Assembly (NCBI GenBank): GCA_023402845.1 | Contig: JAEYFP010000066.1 | Span: forward strand, 5,215-69,214 | DNA from: Bacillota bacterium | Lineage (GTDB): Bacteria > Bacillota > Clostridia > Lachnospirales > Lachnospiraceae | DNA length: 64,000 nt | Direction of reading: 5' to 3' | Shown: piece by piece, positions 19,170 to 48,040 of the stretch | How positions within the stretch are numbered: the stretch's first letter is position 1 | Layout of the letters: each line of letters opens with the position of its first letter | Translations under genes and position numbers: made by a program | Notes under the pieces: generated by a model | Databases searched by the model: none | What the model saw: the letters and a program-made list of their open reading frames with translations, nothing else | Told to the model about the DNA's origin: nothing

Positions 19170-20090
19170 ATGGGAGAATTATATGATGTAATCATTGTAG
19201 GTTCCGGCCCTGCGGGAATGACGGCAGCAATCTATTCCAAAAGAGCGGAATTGAAGACATTGCTGATAGAGAAAAATTATATGGGCGGGGGACAGGTACT
19301 GAACACGTATGAAGTGGATAATTTTCCGGGCTTTCCGGGAATCAATGGCTTTGACCTGGGGATGAAATTTTCGGAGCATGTAGATAAAATGGGAGTGGAA
19401 CGGCTGGAAACGGAAGTTCTGGGGATGGATCTTTCGGGGGCTGTCAAGATAATCGAGACGGAGAAGGGCACCTTTGAAACGAAGACAGTCATTCTGACGA
19501 GCGGCAATTCCCCGCGCAAGCTTGCCGTGCCGGGTGAGGAACAGTTTGCGGGGATGGGTGTTTCCTACTGTGCGACATGTGACGGTGCATTTTTTAAAAA
19601 CAAGGTAACGGTCGTGGCCGGCGGAGGAGACGTGGCCGTGGAGGATGCAATATTTTTGGCACGCGGTTGTACGAAGGTCTATTTGATACATCGCCGGAAT
19701 GAGCTCAGAGCGGCAAGGATTTTACAGAAGTCTCTATTTGAGACCCCTAATATTGAAGTAATCTGGGACAGTGTGGTGACGGAAATCCGGGGCGGCAATA
19801 AGGTGGAGGAAATCGTCATCAAGAATGTGAAGGATCAAACCGAGCGTATAATTAAGACAGACGGAATTTTTGTTGCTGTTGGCAATGAACCGAATGCTTC
19901 CTATATTGATATGGTAGAAACAGACAGGGGCGGTTATGTGACCGCGGCAGAGGATTGCAAGACAAGCGTGCCGGGTGTATTTGCAGCAGGTGATATCAGA
20001 AGTAAGCGCCTGCGCCAGATTACAACGGCTGTGGGCGACGGCGCAAATGCTGTCATGTCGGTACAGGATTATTTAATCGATATGGTATAA
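19170..20090 (+). CDS. trxB: Thioredoxin-disulfide reductase
   Basis: GSGPAGMTAAIY FAD motif, redox-active CATCDG, and a second dinucleotide motif VAGGGDVAVEDA. Confidence 0.92.
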   Translation: MGELYDVIIVGSGPAGMTAAIYSKRAELKTLLIEKNYMGGGQVLNTYEVDNFPGFPGINGFDLGMKFSEHVDKMGVERLETEVLGMDLSGAVKIIETEKGTFETKTVILTSGNSPRKLAVPGEEQFAGMGVSYCATCDGAFFKNKVTVVAGGGDVAVEDAIFLARGCTKVYLIHRRNELRAARILQKSLFETPNIEVIWDSVVTEIRGGNKVEEIVIKNVKDQTERIIKTDGIFVAVGNEPNASYIDMVETDRGGYVTAAEDCKTSVPGVFAAGDIRSKRLRQITTAVGDGANAVMSVQDYLIDMV

Positions 20091-22228: not shown

Positions 22229-22362
22229 TTGCATTCGCAGATAGCGGATGTTTCAATAAAAATCCCAATTTTCTCCTTGACAAATTTATCATTAGGCATC
22301 ATGCACAAAACCTAAAAAAATCTCTCAGAAAATCGAAAAAAAGGAATCTTAAATGAAAAAAG

Positions 22363-22433
22363 ATATCCACAATTTTAAAAATGGAAGAGACCGAAAAATG
22401 GACTTATACACGAAGTTGTGCACATTATCCACA
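22363..22433 (+). promoter_or_regulatory. Cluster of four co-oriented DnaA-box-like 9-mers in an AT-rich tract
   Basis: ATATCCACA (22363-22371), TTATACACG (22404-22412), TTGTGCACA (22416-22424) and a perfect TTATCCACA (22425-22433). The consensus is TTATNCACA. Confidence 0.3.
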
Positions 22434-22605
22434 TAAAAATGAAAAAAATTAAGAAATATTTTGAACAAATGTTTTGGCGAAAAATAATAAAAAGCATAAT
22501 TTGTAAAAAAATTAAAAAAAGACCATTGACAAACGCCGTCGAAATATGCTAGAGGATTTTTGGAAAACCCGCGTTTCTGAGAACGGAGTGAACAGGAACA
22601 TACCC

Positions 22606-22780
22606 GGTTACTGTTCACGGGTGACATACACGACGTGTTTTTTGTGAGTGAAGCGAAGCGAAAGTCACAGAAAACCGGAGAATTGCAGCGCCAAAACGCT
22701 ATCTTTGCGTTTTGTGTGCATTGCATAGCGTATCGCTGGTCGCGGAACTGCTGTATTTTACAGTGGAGTGAACAGTAACC
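22606..22780 (-). mobile_element. Family B MITE-like element, copy B1 (inverted relative to B2 and B3)
   Basis: Perfect 13-bp terminal inverted repeats: GGTTACTGTTCAC (22606-22618) and GTGAACAGTAACC (22768-22780). The direct repeat CATACCCG lies at both borders (22599-22606 and 22780-22787). The interior is nearly identical to 24840-25012 and 47586-47759. Confidence 0.6.
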
Positions 22781-22819
22781 ATACCCGCCCGCAAAATACG
22801 GAAATTCAGTGTAATATAA

Positions 22820-22849
22820 TTGCAAATAACTCCGGAATTGTGGTATACT
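22820..22849 (+). promoter_or_regulatory. Sigma-A promoter of hpf (extended -10)
   Basis: TTGCAA (22820-22825), 18-nt spacer ending in TGG, TATACT (22844-22849). Confidence 0.5.
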
Positions 22850-23679: not shown

Positions 23680-24774
23680 ATGGACAACAAAAAAAGTATT
23701 ATGGATTACGAGACGGTGGCACTTGATGAGGAAAAATGCGCCCTTGTCATTATCGACCAGACGAAACTGCCATATGAGACAGTGATGCTCACACTTACGG
23801 AGCTTAATGATATCTGGAATGCTATCTATCTGCTTCAGGTACGGGGAGCGCCGGCGATCGGCGTCGCAGCTGCCATCGGCATCTATCTGGAAGCGAAGAA
23901 AATCCAGACTGAAGATTACAAAGATTTTTACAGGCAGTTTAAAAAGGCGAAGGAGTATTTGGATACGGCACGTCCGACGGCTGTAAATTTGTCGTGGGCG
24001 TTGAACAGGATGGAACAGATTTGTATCAGGAACCGGGAAAAGCCCGTTGCACAGATTAAAGAAGCGCTTCATCAGGAGGCGCTTGAAATCAAACAGGAAG
24101 ACACCTGGGTTTGCAAAATGATCGGAGAATACGGACTCTCCCTTGTAAAGCCCGGGGATGGGCTGTTAACGCACTGCAATGCGGGACAGCTGGCGACAAC
24201 CAAATATGGAACGGCAACTGCGCCGATGTATCTTGGGCAGGAGCGGGGTTATCATTTTAAAATTTTTGCGGACGAGACAAGGCCGCTTTTGCAGGGGGCC
24301 AGGCTGACCGCTTACGAACTGAAGGAGGCGGGGCTTGATGTGACGCTGATCTGTGATAATATGTCGGCTGCCGTTATGAAAAATGGCTGGGTAAATGCAG
24401 TGTTCGTAGGCTGTGATCGTGTGGCGGCAAACGGTGACGCAGCGAACAAGATCGGCACCTCGGTTGTAGCGGCTGTCGCAAACTATTATCATATTCCGGT
24501 TTATGTCTGTGCGCCGACATCGACAATCGATTTAAGTCTCACTGACGGCAGTCTGATCCCGATTGAGCAGCGTCCGGAGGAGGAAATCACGGAGATGTGG
24601 TATGAAAGACGCATGGCGCCGGAGGGAGTCAAGGTTTTTAATCCGAGCTTTGATGTAACGGATCATGAATTGATTTCTGCCATTATCACAGAATATGGGA
24701 TTGCGCGTGCGCCTTATGAGGATTCCTTTAAGAAAATCTTTGAAAAGAAAGTGGACGCAGAAATTAACTCTTGA
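23680..24774 (+). CDS. mtnA: S-methyl-5-thioribose-1-phosphate isomerase (eIF-2B alpha/beta/delta-like family)
   Basis: 364 aa with VRGAPAIGVAAA, TRPLLQGARLTAYEL and GCDRVAANGD(A)ANKIGT blocks characteristic of MtnA. Confidence 0.88.
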   Translation: MDNKKSIMDYETVALDEEKCALVIIDQTKLPYETVMLTLTELNDIWNAIYLLQVRGAPAIGVAAAIGIYLEAKKIQTEDYKDFYRQFKKAKEYLDTARPTAVNLSWALNRMEQICIRNREKPVAQIKEALHQEALEIKQEDTWVCKMIGEYGLSLVKPGDGLLTHCNAGQLATTKYGTATAPMYLGQERGYHFKIFADETRPLLQGARLTAYELKEAGLDVTLICDNMSAAVMKNGWVNAVFVGCDRVAANGDAANKIGTSVVAAVANYYHIPVYVCAPTSTIDLSLTDGSLIPIEQRPEEEITEMWYERRMAPEGVKVFNPSFDVTDHELISAIITEYGIARAPYEDSFKKIFEKKVDAEINS

Positions 24775-24839
24775 ATCAGGTTCTTACGCAGTTTAACAGC
24801 AAGTGCTAAGCTGCGTAAGAACGGTAACGTTTTTCCTAT

Positions 24840-25012
24840 GTTACTGTTCACTCCACTGCAAAATACAGCAGTTTTGCGACCAGCAACACGCTATGCGATG
24901 CACACAAAACGCAAAGATAGCGTTTTGGCACTGCAATTCTCCGGTTTTCTGTGACTTTCGCTTCACTTCACTCACAAAAAACACGTCGCATATGTCACCT
25001 GTGAACGGTAAC
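24840..25012 (+). mobile_element. Family B MITE-like element, copy B2
   Basis: GTTACTGTTCAC (24840-24851) and GTGAACGGTAAC (25001-25012). It is flanked by the near-identical direct repeats GTTTTTCCTAT and GTTTTCCTAT. Confidence 0.6.
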
Positions 25013-25052
25013 GTTTTCCTATCATTTTTTGTAGAATCCATAGATATAGTTG

Positions 25053-25081
25053 TTGCAAATGCACATCTGCTGTGATAAAAT
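25053..25081 (+). promoter_or_regulatory. Sigma-A promoter of the butyryl-CoA operon (extended -10)
   Basis: TTGCAA (25053-25058), 17-nt spacer ending TGa, TAAAAT (25076-25081). Confidence 0.6.
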
Positions 25082-43740: not shown

Positions 43741-43758
43741 GAACGGAGTGAACAGTAA
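43741..43758 (-). repeat. Solo end of family B element
   Basis: GAACGGAGTGAACAGTAA is the complement of the B-element left end TTACTGTTCACTCC. An identical solo end occurs at 22581-22595. Confidence 0.6.
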
Positions 43759-43766
43759 TGCTTGGA

Positions 43767-47576: not shown

Positions 47577-47585
47577 ATCACGTAA

Positions 47586-47759
47586 GGTTACTGTTCACTC
47601 CACTGCTAAATACAGCAGTTCCGCGACCAGCAACACGCTATGCGATGCACACAAAACGCAAAGATAGCGTTTTGGCGCTGCAATTCTCCGGTTTTCTGTG
47701 ACTTTCGCTTCGCTTCACTCACAAAAAACACGTCGCATATGTCACCAGTGAACAGTAAT
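47586..47759 (+). mobile_element. Family B MITE-like element, copy B3
   Basis: GGTTACTGTTCAC (47586-47598) and GTGAACAGTAAT (47748-47759). It starts 10 nt after the tex stop codon. Confidence 0.6.
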
Positions 47760-47797
47760 CAAGTAAGAACGTGAAAAAAATATACTGAAAATGATAC

Positions 47798-47826
47798 TTG
47801 ACAAAATGTTAACAATGCAGTATGTT
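47798..47826 (+). promoter_or_regulatory. Sigma-A promoter of the FMN riboswitch-ribU transcript
   Basis: TTGACA (47798-47803), 17-nt spacer, TATGTT (47821-47826). Confidence 0.55.
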
Positions 47827-47857: not shown

Positions 47858-48040
47858 AAGGAAAATTCTTCGGGGTAGGTGTAATTCCTAGCCGGTGGTG
47901 AAGACGAAATGAGAAGCTGCTTTAAAAGCAGAGACTCATAGGCGTACAAGTCCGCGACCCGTATGTGCCAGAAAGGTGCACACGGTTGATTTGGTACAAT
48001 CCAAAACCGACAGTAAAGTCTGGATGAAAGAAGAAATGCG
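47858..48040 (+). promoter_or_regulatory. FMN riboswitch (RFN element)
   Basis: Conserved RFN blocks are present: TTCTTCGGGGTAGGTGTAATTCCTAGCCGGTGGT, AGTCCGCGACCCG, GATTTGGTACAATCCAAAACCGACAGTAAAGTCTGGATG, and a closing AGAAGAA. It lies upstream of a riboflavin transporter gene. Confidence 0.88.

What the first reader, a model, noticed from the sequence alone, without database searches (positions are those of the whole stretch)
24840..25012. Family B: ~174-bp MITE-like element with 12-13 bp terminal inverted repeats and flanking direct repeats
Seen in sequence: three nearly identical copies lie at 22606-22780 (inverted), 24840-25012 and 47586-47759. The ends are GGTTACTGTTCAC and GTGAACAGTAACC, perfect for 13 bp in B1. 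B1 is bordered by the 8-bp direct repeat CATACCCG. B2 is bordered by GTTTT(T)CCTAT, within a longer AACGGTAACGTTTT(T)CCTAT duplication. The B3 flanks are ambiguous, with GTAAG on both sides but not abutting the ends. The interior has conserved hairpins (ACTGC-N-GCAGT and AAAACGC-AAAGATA-GCGTTTT). Two solo ends, GAACGGAGTGAACAG, occur at 22581-22595 and 43741-43755. All copies are intergenic, and three lie 6-70 nt after a stop codon (mtnA, tex, lysC). The similar peptides in ORFs 22349-22825(-) and 24803-25075(+) are translation artefacts of this repeat. Inference: this is a non-autonomous transposon whose partner transposase is not in this window.
Basis: seen in the sequence. Interest (0 to 1): 0.6.

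Follow-up and report, generated by a model that had tools for sequence, protein, structure and literature searches.

The report
Promoter-docking miniature transposon (IS66-type MITE)
The three 173-bp repeats are copies of a small gene-less jumping element that borrows the ends of an IS66-type insertion sequence of gut Lachnospiraceae. Like that insertion sequence, it lands almost exactly 39-40 bases upstream of the -35 box of ordinary promoters.

Summary
Family B has 3 copies in the window and 10 in the 4.46-Mb genome, in size classes of 173, about 123 and 48 bp. It has 12-bp terminal inverted repeats (GTTACTGTTCAC) and 8-bp target-site duplications.

The sister species G001 has precise empty sites, with one copy of the target, at 6 of the 8 orthologous sites examined. 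It also carries a copy where this genome is empty. So the element has transposed.

No transposase for it is present in this assembly. The same tips occur on 2.1-2.4-kb ISBst12-like IS66-family insertion sequences of Lachnospiraceae and other Bacillota. Five of these match GTTACTGTTCACTCC exactly. These ISs also make 8-bp duplications, so B is an orphan MITE of that clade.

One property was unexpected. The tips of B, of a sibling family C, of related MITEs in other genera and of the autonomous ISs lie 38-40 nt upstream of an outward-reading sigma-A -35 hexamer. This holds for 53 of 203 ends, against 0.36% of random positions. It explains the intergenic location and why B1 and B2 abut family C ends.

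Promoter-anchored insertion is published for TnGBS, ISLre2 and ISKra4 at 13-17 bp. I found no such report for IS66-type elements.

The parts
22607..22779 (-). Family B copy B1 (173 bp); 12-bp tips at 22607-22618 and 22768-22779
   Evidence: absent from the orthologous site of G001
22599..22606 (.). B1 target-site duplication, left copy CATACCCG (right copy at 22780-22787)
   Evidence: single CAAACCCG in the G001 empty site
22780..22787 (.). B1 target-site duplication, right copy CATACCCG
24840..25012 (+). Family B copy B2 (173 bp); tips at 24840-24851 and 25001-25012 (right tip is GTGAACGGTAAC)
   Evidence: absent from G001
24829..24839 (.). B2 flanking duplication, left copy GTTTTTCCTAT (right copy GTTTTCCTAT at 25013-25022); irregular at 10/11 bp
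   Evidence: single GTTTTCCTAT in G001
25013..25022 (.). B2 flanking duplication, right copy GTTTTCCTAT
47587..47759 (+). Family B copy B3 (173 bp); tips at 47587-47598 and 47748-47759
47579..47586 (.). B3 target-site duplication, left copy CACGTAAG (right copy CAAGTAAG at 47760-47767; 7 of 8 match)
47760..47767 (.). B3 target-site duplication, right copy CAAGTAAG
24855..24872 (+). B-specific small hairpin (ACTGC-loop-GCAGT). It is part of a 21-bp insertion relative to homologous MITEs of other genera
24905..24927 (+). Hairpin 1 (AAAACGC-AAAGATA-GCGTTTT); the stem is kept by compensatory changes in other genera
   Evidence: pairs 66/90, 70/86 and 71/85 changed on both sides
24942..24982 (+). 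Hairpin 2 (TTTTCTGTGA...TCACAAAAAA); the stem is kept by compensatory changes
   Evidence: pairs 113/139, 116/136 and 117/135
22820..22849 (+). hpf promoter TTGCAA-18-TATACT; its -35 starts 40 nt after the B1 tip
25053..25081 (+). Promoter of the thiolase/butyryl-CoA operon, TTGCAA-17-TAAAAT; its -35 starts 40 nt after the B2 tip
47798..47826 (+). Promoter of the FMN riboswitch/ribU, TTGACA-17-TATGTT; its -35 starts 38 nt after the B3 tip
22568..22599 (-). Solo left end of sibling family C (GTTCCTGTTCACTCCGTTCTCAGAAAC...). It abuts the B1 target octamer
   Evidence: present in G001, 39 nt from the same -35
24760..24828 (+). Right-end fragment of family C (hairpin CAGTTTAACAGCAAGTGCTAAGCTG plus a tip-like AGAACGGTAAC). 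It abuts the B2 duplication
43741..43759 (-). Solo left end of family C, 6 nt after the lysC stop; not at the promoter register

Best explanation
[quoted passage not shown] It has no gene of its own.

Shown:
- It has 12-bp terminal inverted repeats, and each insertion duplicates 8 bp of target.
- It has moved since this species split from its sister species G001.
- Its tips are those of a clade of 2.1-2.4-kb single-transposase IS66-family insertion sequences (ISBst12-like) found in Lachnospiraceae and other Bacillota. Those ISs also make 8-bp duplications.
- B, its sibling family C, homologous MITEs in other genera and the autonomous ISs all sit with a tip 38-40 nt upstream of the -35 hexamer of a sigma-A-type promoter that reads away from the element. 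The duplicated octamer therefore ends 30-32 nt before the -35. Either end can face the promoter.

Inferred:
- B is cut and inserted in trans by a transposase of that clade, which binds the tips and makes an 8-bp staggered cut in the target.
- The transposase, or the complex it forms, uses the promoter as a landmark. The landmark is most likely RNA polymerase holoenzyme or sigma bound to the promoter, or possibly the -35/-10 DNA itself.
- The landing octamer is regenerated next to the promoter after each insertion, so the same pad can be hit again. This is why B1, B2 and the G001 copy abut resident family C ends.
- The transposase is not in this assembly, so the copies are orphans, or their partner was not assembled.
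For: Copies and anatomy:
- There are 10 copies in size classes of 173, about 123 and 48 bp, all ending in the 12-bp tips.
- 8-bp duplications: four perfect (CATACCCG, TACAGATG, ATAATATT, AACCTTAT) and three with one mismatch.

Mobility:
- G001, whose flanks are 96-98% identical at most of these sites, has precise empty sites with one target copy at the B1, B2, C25, C26, C37 and C39 sites.
- One short copy is shared with G001, and G001 has a copy at a site that is empty here.

Partner:
- G094:C149 carries a 2308-bp IS with a 581-aa transposase. It scores 64 bits on PF03050 (cut-off 23) and 137 bits on NF033517. Its TIR is GTTACTTTTCACGGGG....
- 33 relatives have the same TIR, with perfect 8-bp duplications in at least six.
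- More distant relatives (40-59% aa) carry GTTACTGTTCACTCC (L209, L213, L215, L241, L256) or GTTACTGTTCACACC (L210, L211, L221, L238, L242, L247, L264). Perfect 8-bp duplications are seen in L221, L222, L234 and L245.
- ISDge4 of the ISBst12 group has the TIR GTAACTGCTCAGCA and an 8-bp direct repeat (PMC12898284).
- The nearest annotated plasmid relatives are 'IS66 family transposase', including one on Geobacillus pHTA426, a plasmid that ISsaga predicts to hold one ISBst12-group IS66 element (PMC8024623).

Promoter register (-35 start 38-40 nt from the tip, as a share of all outward promoter matches within 0-95 nt):
- this genome: 12 of 23;
- MITEs of other genera: 11 of 24;
- autonomous ISs: 31 of 48;
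- a uniform distribution would give 0.7, 0.8 and 1.5.
- 53 of 203 ends carry such a promoter, against 72 of 20,000 random positions.
- 8 of the 10 B copies obey the rule.
- The downstream genes are real: hpf, thiolase, ribU behind an FMN riboswitch, rpmF, rplJ and glnS.
- The promoters exist without the element in G001.
Against: - No transposase of this clade was found in this genome by tblastn with 11 queries at E 1e-3. None was found in G001, G061, G194 or G165 either. Trans-mobilisation is therefore inferred.
- MITE and IS share only the outer 15-18 nt; no sampled IS shares the interior.
- The partner transposase falls below NCBIfam's IS66 equivalog cut-off (137 against 180 bits).
- Its TIR starts GTTA, not the GTAA usual for IS66.
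- B2 has a 10/11-bp duplication rather than 8 bp, and its right tip plus flank equals the ancestral family C end.
- Several of the more distant ISs show no matching flanks (L179, L180).
- Promoters are consensus matches, not mapped start sites.
- Two B copies (C53, C39) and several family C ends do not show the promoter at 38-40 nt.
Confidence: 0.85

Rival explanations
1. The elements are MITEs of this IS clade, but the 38-40-nt register reflects selection after random insertion. On this view only copies just upstream of promoters are tolerated or useful, and the transposase does not target promoters.
For: All copies are intergenic. Insertions closer to the promoter would break it, and insertions in genes would be lost. 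No insertion assay exists, and read data could not be consulted.
Against: The register is sharp to within 1 nt across 53 ends, in many genera and upstream of unrelated genes. It is the same for 2.3-kb ISs and for 25-170-bp MITEs. Intergenic space upstream of that point is available at several sites (for example 65 nt between mtnA and B2) but is not used. The same octamer was hit twice at three promoters.
Confidence: 0.08
2. B is mobilised by a different 8-bp-duplicating family (IS6, ISL3, IS256 or IS1595), and the tip match to IS66-type elements is coincidental.
For: IS256-family genes are present in this genome, in G061 and in G194, the three genomes richest in these tips. No IS66-type partner is present in any of them.
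Against: The IS6, ISL3 and IS256 elements of those genomes have no GTTACTGTTCAC within 2 mismatches in their flanks, and the one IS256 element with recognisable inverted ends has different ones. More than 60 IS66-type elements carry the tip motif, and five match 15 of 15 nt. They also share the promoter register.
Confidence: 0.04
3. B is primarily a host-selected structured element (an insulator, an RNA or a protein-binding module) spread by recombination rather than transposition.
For: The two interior hairpins keep pairing through compensatory changes across genera. The fold z-score is -4.6.
Against: The 8-bp duplications and precise empty sites are the mark of transposition. There is no Rfam match and no promoter or terminator consensus inside the copies. 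Copy content differs between sister species. Later co-option of some copies is not excluded.
Confidence: 0.03

Closest known systems
IS66 family, single-transposase ISBst12 group (ISBst12, ISDge4, Geobacillus copies)
   Same: - The partner ISs carry a DDE_Tnp_IS66 domain.
- They have one large transposase ORF and no TnpA/TnpB.
- They make an 8-bp target duplication.
- Their TIR resembles ISDge4's GTAACTGCTCAGCA (PMC12898284).
   Different: - The transposases are longer (555-581 aa against 449 aa) and share only 25-29% identity with annotated IS66-family proteins.
- They fall below the NCBIfam equivalog cut-off.
- The tips start GTTAC, not GTAA.
- They show a strict promoter register, which I did not find described for this family in the papers searched.
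Bacterial MITEs in general (Correia, RUP, bcr1, MITEPsy1 and others; review PMC10969869)
   Same: Short, ORF-less, with terminal inverted repeats, target duplications, many copies, an intergenic location, a folded interior and dependence on a transposase in trans.
   Different: - This family derives its ends from an IS66-type element.
- It has internal tip-like repeats that give nested size classes (173, about 123 and 48 bp here; 25-27 bp in other genera).
- It sits at a fixed distance from promoters.
- A term search of that review found no mention of Firmicutes, Clostridia or Lachnospiraceae, and the library search counted no occurrence of IS66 in it.
TnGBS ICEs, the ISLre2 family and the ISKra4 group (Mutator-like p-MULT 3/4 transposases; PMC3942029)
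   Same: DDE elements that insert at a fixed distance upstream of the -35 box of sigma-A promoters. Elements with symmetric ends insert in both orientations.
   Different: - The transposase family differs (IS66-type, not Mutator-like).
- The distance from tip to -35 is 38-40 nt instead of 13-17 nt.
- Here non-coding MITEs follow the same rule.

Membership tests
MITE (non-autonomous DDE-type transposon) | Short, with no coding capacity | tested here: met
   Sizes are 48-173 bp. The ORFs across B1 and B2 are lost in G001, which lacks the element.
MITE (non-autonomous DDE-type transposon) | Terminal inverted repeats | tested here: met
   12-bp GTTACTGTTCAC / GTGAACAGTAAC in all complete copies.
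MITE (non-autonomous DDE-type transposon) | Target-site duplication of fixed length | tested here: met
   8 bp at 8 of 9 complete copies (C32 with two mismatches or an indel); B2 is irregular at 10/11 bp.
MITE (non-autonomous DDE-type transposon) | Insertion polymorphism with precise empty sites | tested here: met
   Six empty sites in G001, and one reciprocal case.
MITE (non-autonomous DDE-type transposon) | An autonomous element with the same ends | tested here: met
   ISBst12-like ISs have identical 12-15-nt tips and 8-bp duplications. Only the tips are shared.
MITE (non-autonomous DDE-type transposon) | The partner transposase is present in the same genome | tested here: not met
   tblastn with 11 transposases finds nothing in the 96.75%-complete assembly; a protein search of G001 with P0001 finds nothing either.
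IS66 family / ISBst12 group (for the partner IS) | DDE_Tnp_IS66 catalytic domain | tested here: met
   PF03050 scores 64 bits against a cut-off of 23. NF033517 scores 137 bits, below its cut-off of 180.
IS66 family / ISBst12 group (for the partner IS) | 8-bp direct repeats | tested here: met
   Perfect 8-bp duplications in L147, L150, L151, L154, L155, L158, L221, L222, L234 and L245.
IS66 family / ISBst12 group (for the partner IS) | A single transposase ORF, without the IS66 TnpA and TnpB | tested here: met
   L138 has a 581-aa ORF plus a 100-aa ORF with no Pfam or NCBIfam match.
IS66 family / ISBst12 group (for the partner IS) | TIR beginning GTAA | tested here: inconclusive
   The tips begin GTTAC. 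They are close to ISDge4's GTAACTGCTCAG.
Promoter-targeting transposons of the TnGBS/ISLre2/ISKra4 kind | Insertion at a fixed distance upstream of the sigma-A -35 box | tested here: met
   There is a peak at 38-40 nt. The distance differs from their 13-17 nt.
Promoter-targeting transposons of the TnGBS/ISLre2/ISKra4 kind | Mutator-like (p-MULT) transposase with the signature motif | tested here: not met
   The transposase is IS66-type. It gives only marginal hits to IS256/IS1249 models, at E about 1e-3.
REP/REPIN mobilised by RAYT (HUH) transposases | No target duplication; a palindromic unit with an associated RAYT gene | tested here: not met
   8-bp duplications are present. No RAYT gene was sought specifically, and none was seen next to the copies.

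The most novel reading that the evidence does not exclude
ISBst12-like IS66-family transposases of Bacillota read an active sigma-A promoter as a landmark. They integrate with single-base precision about three and a half helical turns upstream of the -35 box: the target octamer ends 30-32 nt before it, and the element tip lies 38-40 nt before it. This would be a second, independent family of promoter-anchored bacterial transposons, with a register different from TnGBS/ISLre2/ISKra4. Family B and its relatives would be natural reporters of it. The landing pad is regenerated at every hit, so elements stack at strong promoters. The published literature I could search does not describe this for IS66-type elements.
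Probability: 0.6. Interest if true: 0.72.

Novelty: new variant of a known kind. Interest (0 to 1): 0.6.

Why it matters
As a MITE the element is ordinary. It mainly helps annotation: it removes two spurious ORFs, explains the 'solo ends', and identifies a repeat that breaks Lachnospiraceae assemblies.

The wider point is the landing rule. A whole clade of IS66-type elements and their MITEs sits at one exact distance from promoters of housekeeping genes such as rplJ, rpmF, hpf and the butyrate operon.
- If the transposase really reads promoters, it offers a tractable system for studying how a DDE transposase senses RNA polymerase or promoter DNA.
- It explains how these elements persist without killing genes.
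- It gives a free, sequence-based marker of promoter positions in uncultured gut Clostridia.
- It could inspire promoter-proximal insertion tools.

Tried and rejected
- **Rfam scan of the window.** The only match is the FMN riboswitch.
- **Autonomous copy in the own genome.** Self-megablast shows no multi-copy IS. The repeats at contig ends encode no transposase. Tip pairs 0.7-4 kb apart hold no transposase.
- **G061:C20 tip pair 1.8 kb apart.** This is an unrelated IS with its own ends, inserted into a MITE.
- **IS6 (PF13610), ISL3 (PF01610) and IS256 (PF00872) as partners.** Their copies in tip-rich genomes lack the tips.
- **Canonical IS66 copies (strong PF03050 hits).** Their flanks lack the tips as element ends; two chance matches lie inside transposase genes.
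- **Solo ends in G194 next to large ORFs.** These are ordinary genes.
- **Literature search for the tip strings.** Only chance hits in animal papers.
- **Interior homology between MITEs and ISs.** None beyond 15-18 nt.
- **Promoter or terminator consensus inside B.** None found.
- **Anchor on -10 rather than -35.** Offset against spacer length is uninformative, because nearly all spacers are 17 nt.

Full report
**1. Observation**

The window holds three near-identical 173-bp copies at 22607-22779 (minus strand), 24840-25012 and 47587-47759. They are 93-96% identical to each other.

The window is contig C41:5215-69214 of a 4.46-Mb, 68-contig genome with 44% G+C. It belongs to an uncultured member of Lachnospiraceae: the best Tex matches are Lachnospiraceae MAGs at up to 80% amino-acid identity.

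The whole genome has 10 copies:
- five of 170-173 bp;
- three of 121-124 bp (C53:42063-42185, C32:126940-127063, C39:8532-8652);
- one of 48 bp (C37:42720-42767);
- one truncated copy (C31:40440-40539).

Every complete copy ends in the 12-bp inverted repeat GTTACTGTTCAC / GTGAACAGTAAC. The short classes end where the full element carries internal look-alikes of the right tip (GCGACCAGCAAC and CTGTGAC...). The three 121-124-bp copies lie at three different loci with different flanks, so that form has itself been copied.

**2. Evidence of transposition**

Flanking 8-bp direct repeats abut the tips:
- perfect: CATACCCG (B1), TACAGATG, ATAATATT, AACCTTAT;
- one mismatch: CACGTAAG/CAAGTAAG (B3), TACGATTC/TGCGATTC, GTGCTATC/GTGCTACC.

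The family occurs only in this genus among 41 relatives searched. The sister species G001 is 96-98% identical in most of the flanks. I searched it with joined flanks and then read the sites.
- At the B1, B2, C25, C26, C37 and C39 sites, G001 has no element and exactly one copy of the duplicated target. At the C37 site, for example, G001 reads ...cagcttgtATAAGGTTagct....
- The short C32 copy is shared by both genomes.
- G001 has a full copy where this genome is empty.

The element has therefore moved in both lineages since they split.

**3. A superfamily with the same tips**

The 12-mer, allowing one mismatch, occurs 54 times in this genome. Besides B there is a sibling family C. Its one complete copy is 133 bp (C7:94648-94780, target AAAAACCC), and it has many partial left or right ends.

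The 'solo ends' in the window (about 22568-22599 and 43741-43759) and the left flank of B2 (about 24760-24828) are family C pieces.

The exact 15-mer GTTACTGTTCACTCC is patchy across the family. It is found in 17 of 201 genera sampled, with up to 47 copies per genome. The reversed control gives 0 to 1.

Other genera carry homologous 100-153-bp MITEs. They also carry 25-27-bp minimal elements (tip-TCC-tip) with 8-bp duplications. Those minimal elements may be deletion products between the inner tip-like repeat and the right tip.

B differs from the other-genus MITEs by a 21-bp hairpin insertion. Across genera, two interior hairpins keep pairing through compensatory changes at six pairs. B2 folds better than every one of 200 shuffles, with z = -4.6.

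**4. The partner**

Transposases of three 8-bp-duplicating families (IS6, ISL3 and IS256) in tip-rich genomes are not flanked by the tips.

I therefore searched PF03050. This found, in G094, a 2308-bp IS with the TIR GTTACTTTTCACGGGGTGGGGAA, which matches the B tip at 11 of 12 positions. It encodes a 581-aa transposase:
- PF03050 scores 64 bits, against a cut-off of 23;
- NF033517 'IS66 family transposase' scores 137 bits, below its cut-off of 180;
- a 100-aa upstream ORF has no family match.

Thirty-three relatives in Lachnospiraceae MAGs and Acetatifactor have the same TIR, and at least six of them have perfect 8-bp duplications.

Profile-guided searches then found more distant members at 40-59% identity. 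They come from Butyrivibrio, Blautia, Anaerostipes, Mediterraneibacter, Oscillospiraceae, Erysipelotrichaceae and a Streptococcaceae MAG. Their tips are exactly those of B and C:
- GTTACTGTTCACTCC in L209, L213, L215, L241 and L256;
- GTTACTGTTCACACC in L210, L211, L221, L238, L242, L247 and L264;
- perfect 8-bp duplications in L221, L222, L234 and L245.

ISDge4 of the ISBst12 group has the TIR GTAACTGCTCAGCA and an 8-bp repeat (PMC12898284). The nearest annotated plasmid proteins are IS66-family transposases, 25-29% identical. One lies on Geobacillus kaustophilus pHTA426, a plasmid for which ISsaga predicts one IS66/ISBst12-group element (PMC8024623).

Homology between MITE and IS is confined to the outer 15-18 nt.

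No transposase of the clade is in this genome. None is in G001, G061, G194 or G165. This genome has only pieces of an IS66-family gene at C26:40214-40748, and the clade's transposases do not match it. B is thus an orphan MITE of an ISBst12-like IS66 clade. The alternative is that its partner failed to assemble.

**5. Promoter register**

A sibling note on this genome says that the three B copies end 38-40 nt before a -35 box. I tested that idea generally.

For every tip I scanned the outward flank for sigma-70-type promoters reading away from the element. A match needed at least 9 of 12 consensus positions and a 16-18-nt spacer. The table gives, for each set, how many of the outward promoter matches within 0-95 nt have a -35 start 38-40 nt from the tip.

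| Set | Ends | Matches at 38-40 nt | All matches, 0-95 nt | Expected if uniform |
|---|---|---|---|---|
| This genome | 54 | 12 | 23 | 0.7 |
| MITEs of other genera | 55 | 11 | 24 | 0.8 |
| Autonomous ISs | 94 | 31 | 48 | 1.5 |

- In all, 53 of 203 ends have such a promoter: 25 at 39 nt, 17 at 40 nt and 11 at 38 nt. The rate at 20,000 random genome positions is 0.36%.
- A few flanks are orthologous between genomes, so the number of independent sites is slightly lower than 53.
- Nothing is conserved between the duplicated octamer and the -35 box.
- Eight of the ten B copies obey the rule: B1 40, B2 40, B3 38, C25 39, C26 40, C31 39, C32 39 and C37 40 nt. Either end can face the promoter.
- The genes served are real. 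They include hpf, the thiolase/butyryl-CoA operon, ribU behind an Rfam-confirmed FMN riboswitch, rpmF, rplJ and glnS.
- The promoters are present in G001 without the element, with the single target octamer ending 31-32 nt before the -35 box.

Such precision, shared by 2.3-kb ISs and 25-170-bp MITEs across genera, points to targeting by the transposase rather than to selection.

The register also explains why B1, B2 and the G001 copy abut resident family C ends. In G001 those resident ends already lie 39-40 nt from the same -35 box. The regenerated landing octamer was therefore hit a second time.

**6. Comparison with what is known**

MITEs are well known. This one is a new family, and term searches of the 2024 review of prokaryotic MITEs turned up no mention of IS66, Firmicutes, Clostridia or Lachnospiraceae.

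Promoter-anchored insertion is published for TnGBS, ISLre2 and ISKra4. Those elements have Mutator-like transposases and insert 13-17 bp upstream of the -35 box. The authors call this unusual among prokaryotic transposases (PMC3942029). My searches found no such report for IS66-type elements.

Earlier AI notes of this scan describe ISBst12-type elements docking 6-14 nt from -35 or TATA boxes in other phyla. Those notes are unchecked leads. They agree in kind with what I find here and differ in register.

**7. Loose ends**

- B2's duplication is 10/11 bp, and its right tip plus flank equals the ancestral family C end of G001. This suggests gene conversion or an aberrant event.
- The B3 site in G001 holds a 27-bp tip-to-tip remnant at the same 38-nt register.
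- The function of the conserved hairpins is unknown.

**Verdict**

The element is a new MITE family of a known kind. Its promoter register, shared with its IS clade, is a noteworthy variant of a known targeting habit.

Noticed in passing
window 24760-24828: The last codons and the stop of mtnA (stop at 24772-24774) lie inside sequence homologous to the interior and right end of family C. The same arrangement is present in G001. An old C insertion may therefore have supplied the present 3' end of the gene.
   Followed up: partly
G001:C78:18466-19188 (L206), orthologous to window 47577-47800: At the tex-ribU site, G001 has a 27-bp tip-to-tip remnant, GTTACTGAGCGCGAAGTGAACTGTAAT. Its end is 38 nt from the same TTGACA, the same register as B3. 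It is either a deletion derivative or an independent hit on the same pad.
   Followed up: partly
L002:9052-9078, L010:4651-4677, L011:4631-4655 (G061, G165): These are 25-27-bp minimal elements made only of two tips and a 3-nt linker, flanked by perfect 8-bp duplications (CTTCATAT, CTTGTTTT, CCTGATTC). They are either the smallest mobile units or recurrent deletions between the inner tip-like repeat and the right tip.
   Followed up: partly
genome C26:109838-109867: Two tips lie head to head, 6 bp apart (GTGAACAATAAC-CTCCTG-GTTACTGTTCAC). This looks like two abutting solo ends or a circle-junction-like arrangement.
   Followed up: no
L015:2371-4215 (G061:C20): An unrelated 1.7-kb IS with its own ends (CAATGTCATTTAGATAA...) and a split transposase ORF has inserted into a MITE of this superfamily.
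   Followed up: partly
It was not analysed here.
   Followed up: no
window 47862-48039: An FMN riboswitch (RF00050, 85 bits) lies directly downstream of the promoter that B3 docks to. This confirms that the promoter is real.
   Followed up: yes
P0001 (L138:365-2107, minus strand): The IS66-type transposase gives marginal NCBIfam hits to IS1249 and IS256 (Mutator-like) models, at E about 1e-3. This may hint at a distant link to the Mutator-like families that also target promoters.
   Followed up: no
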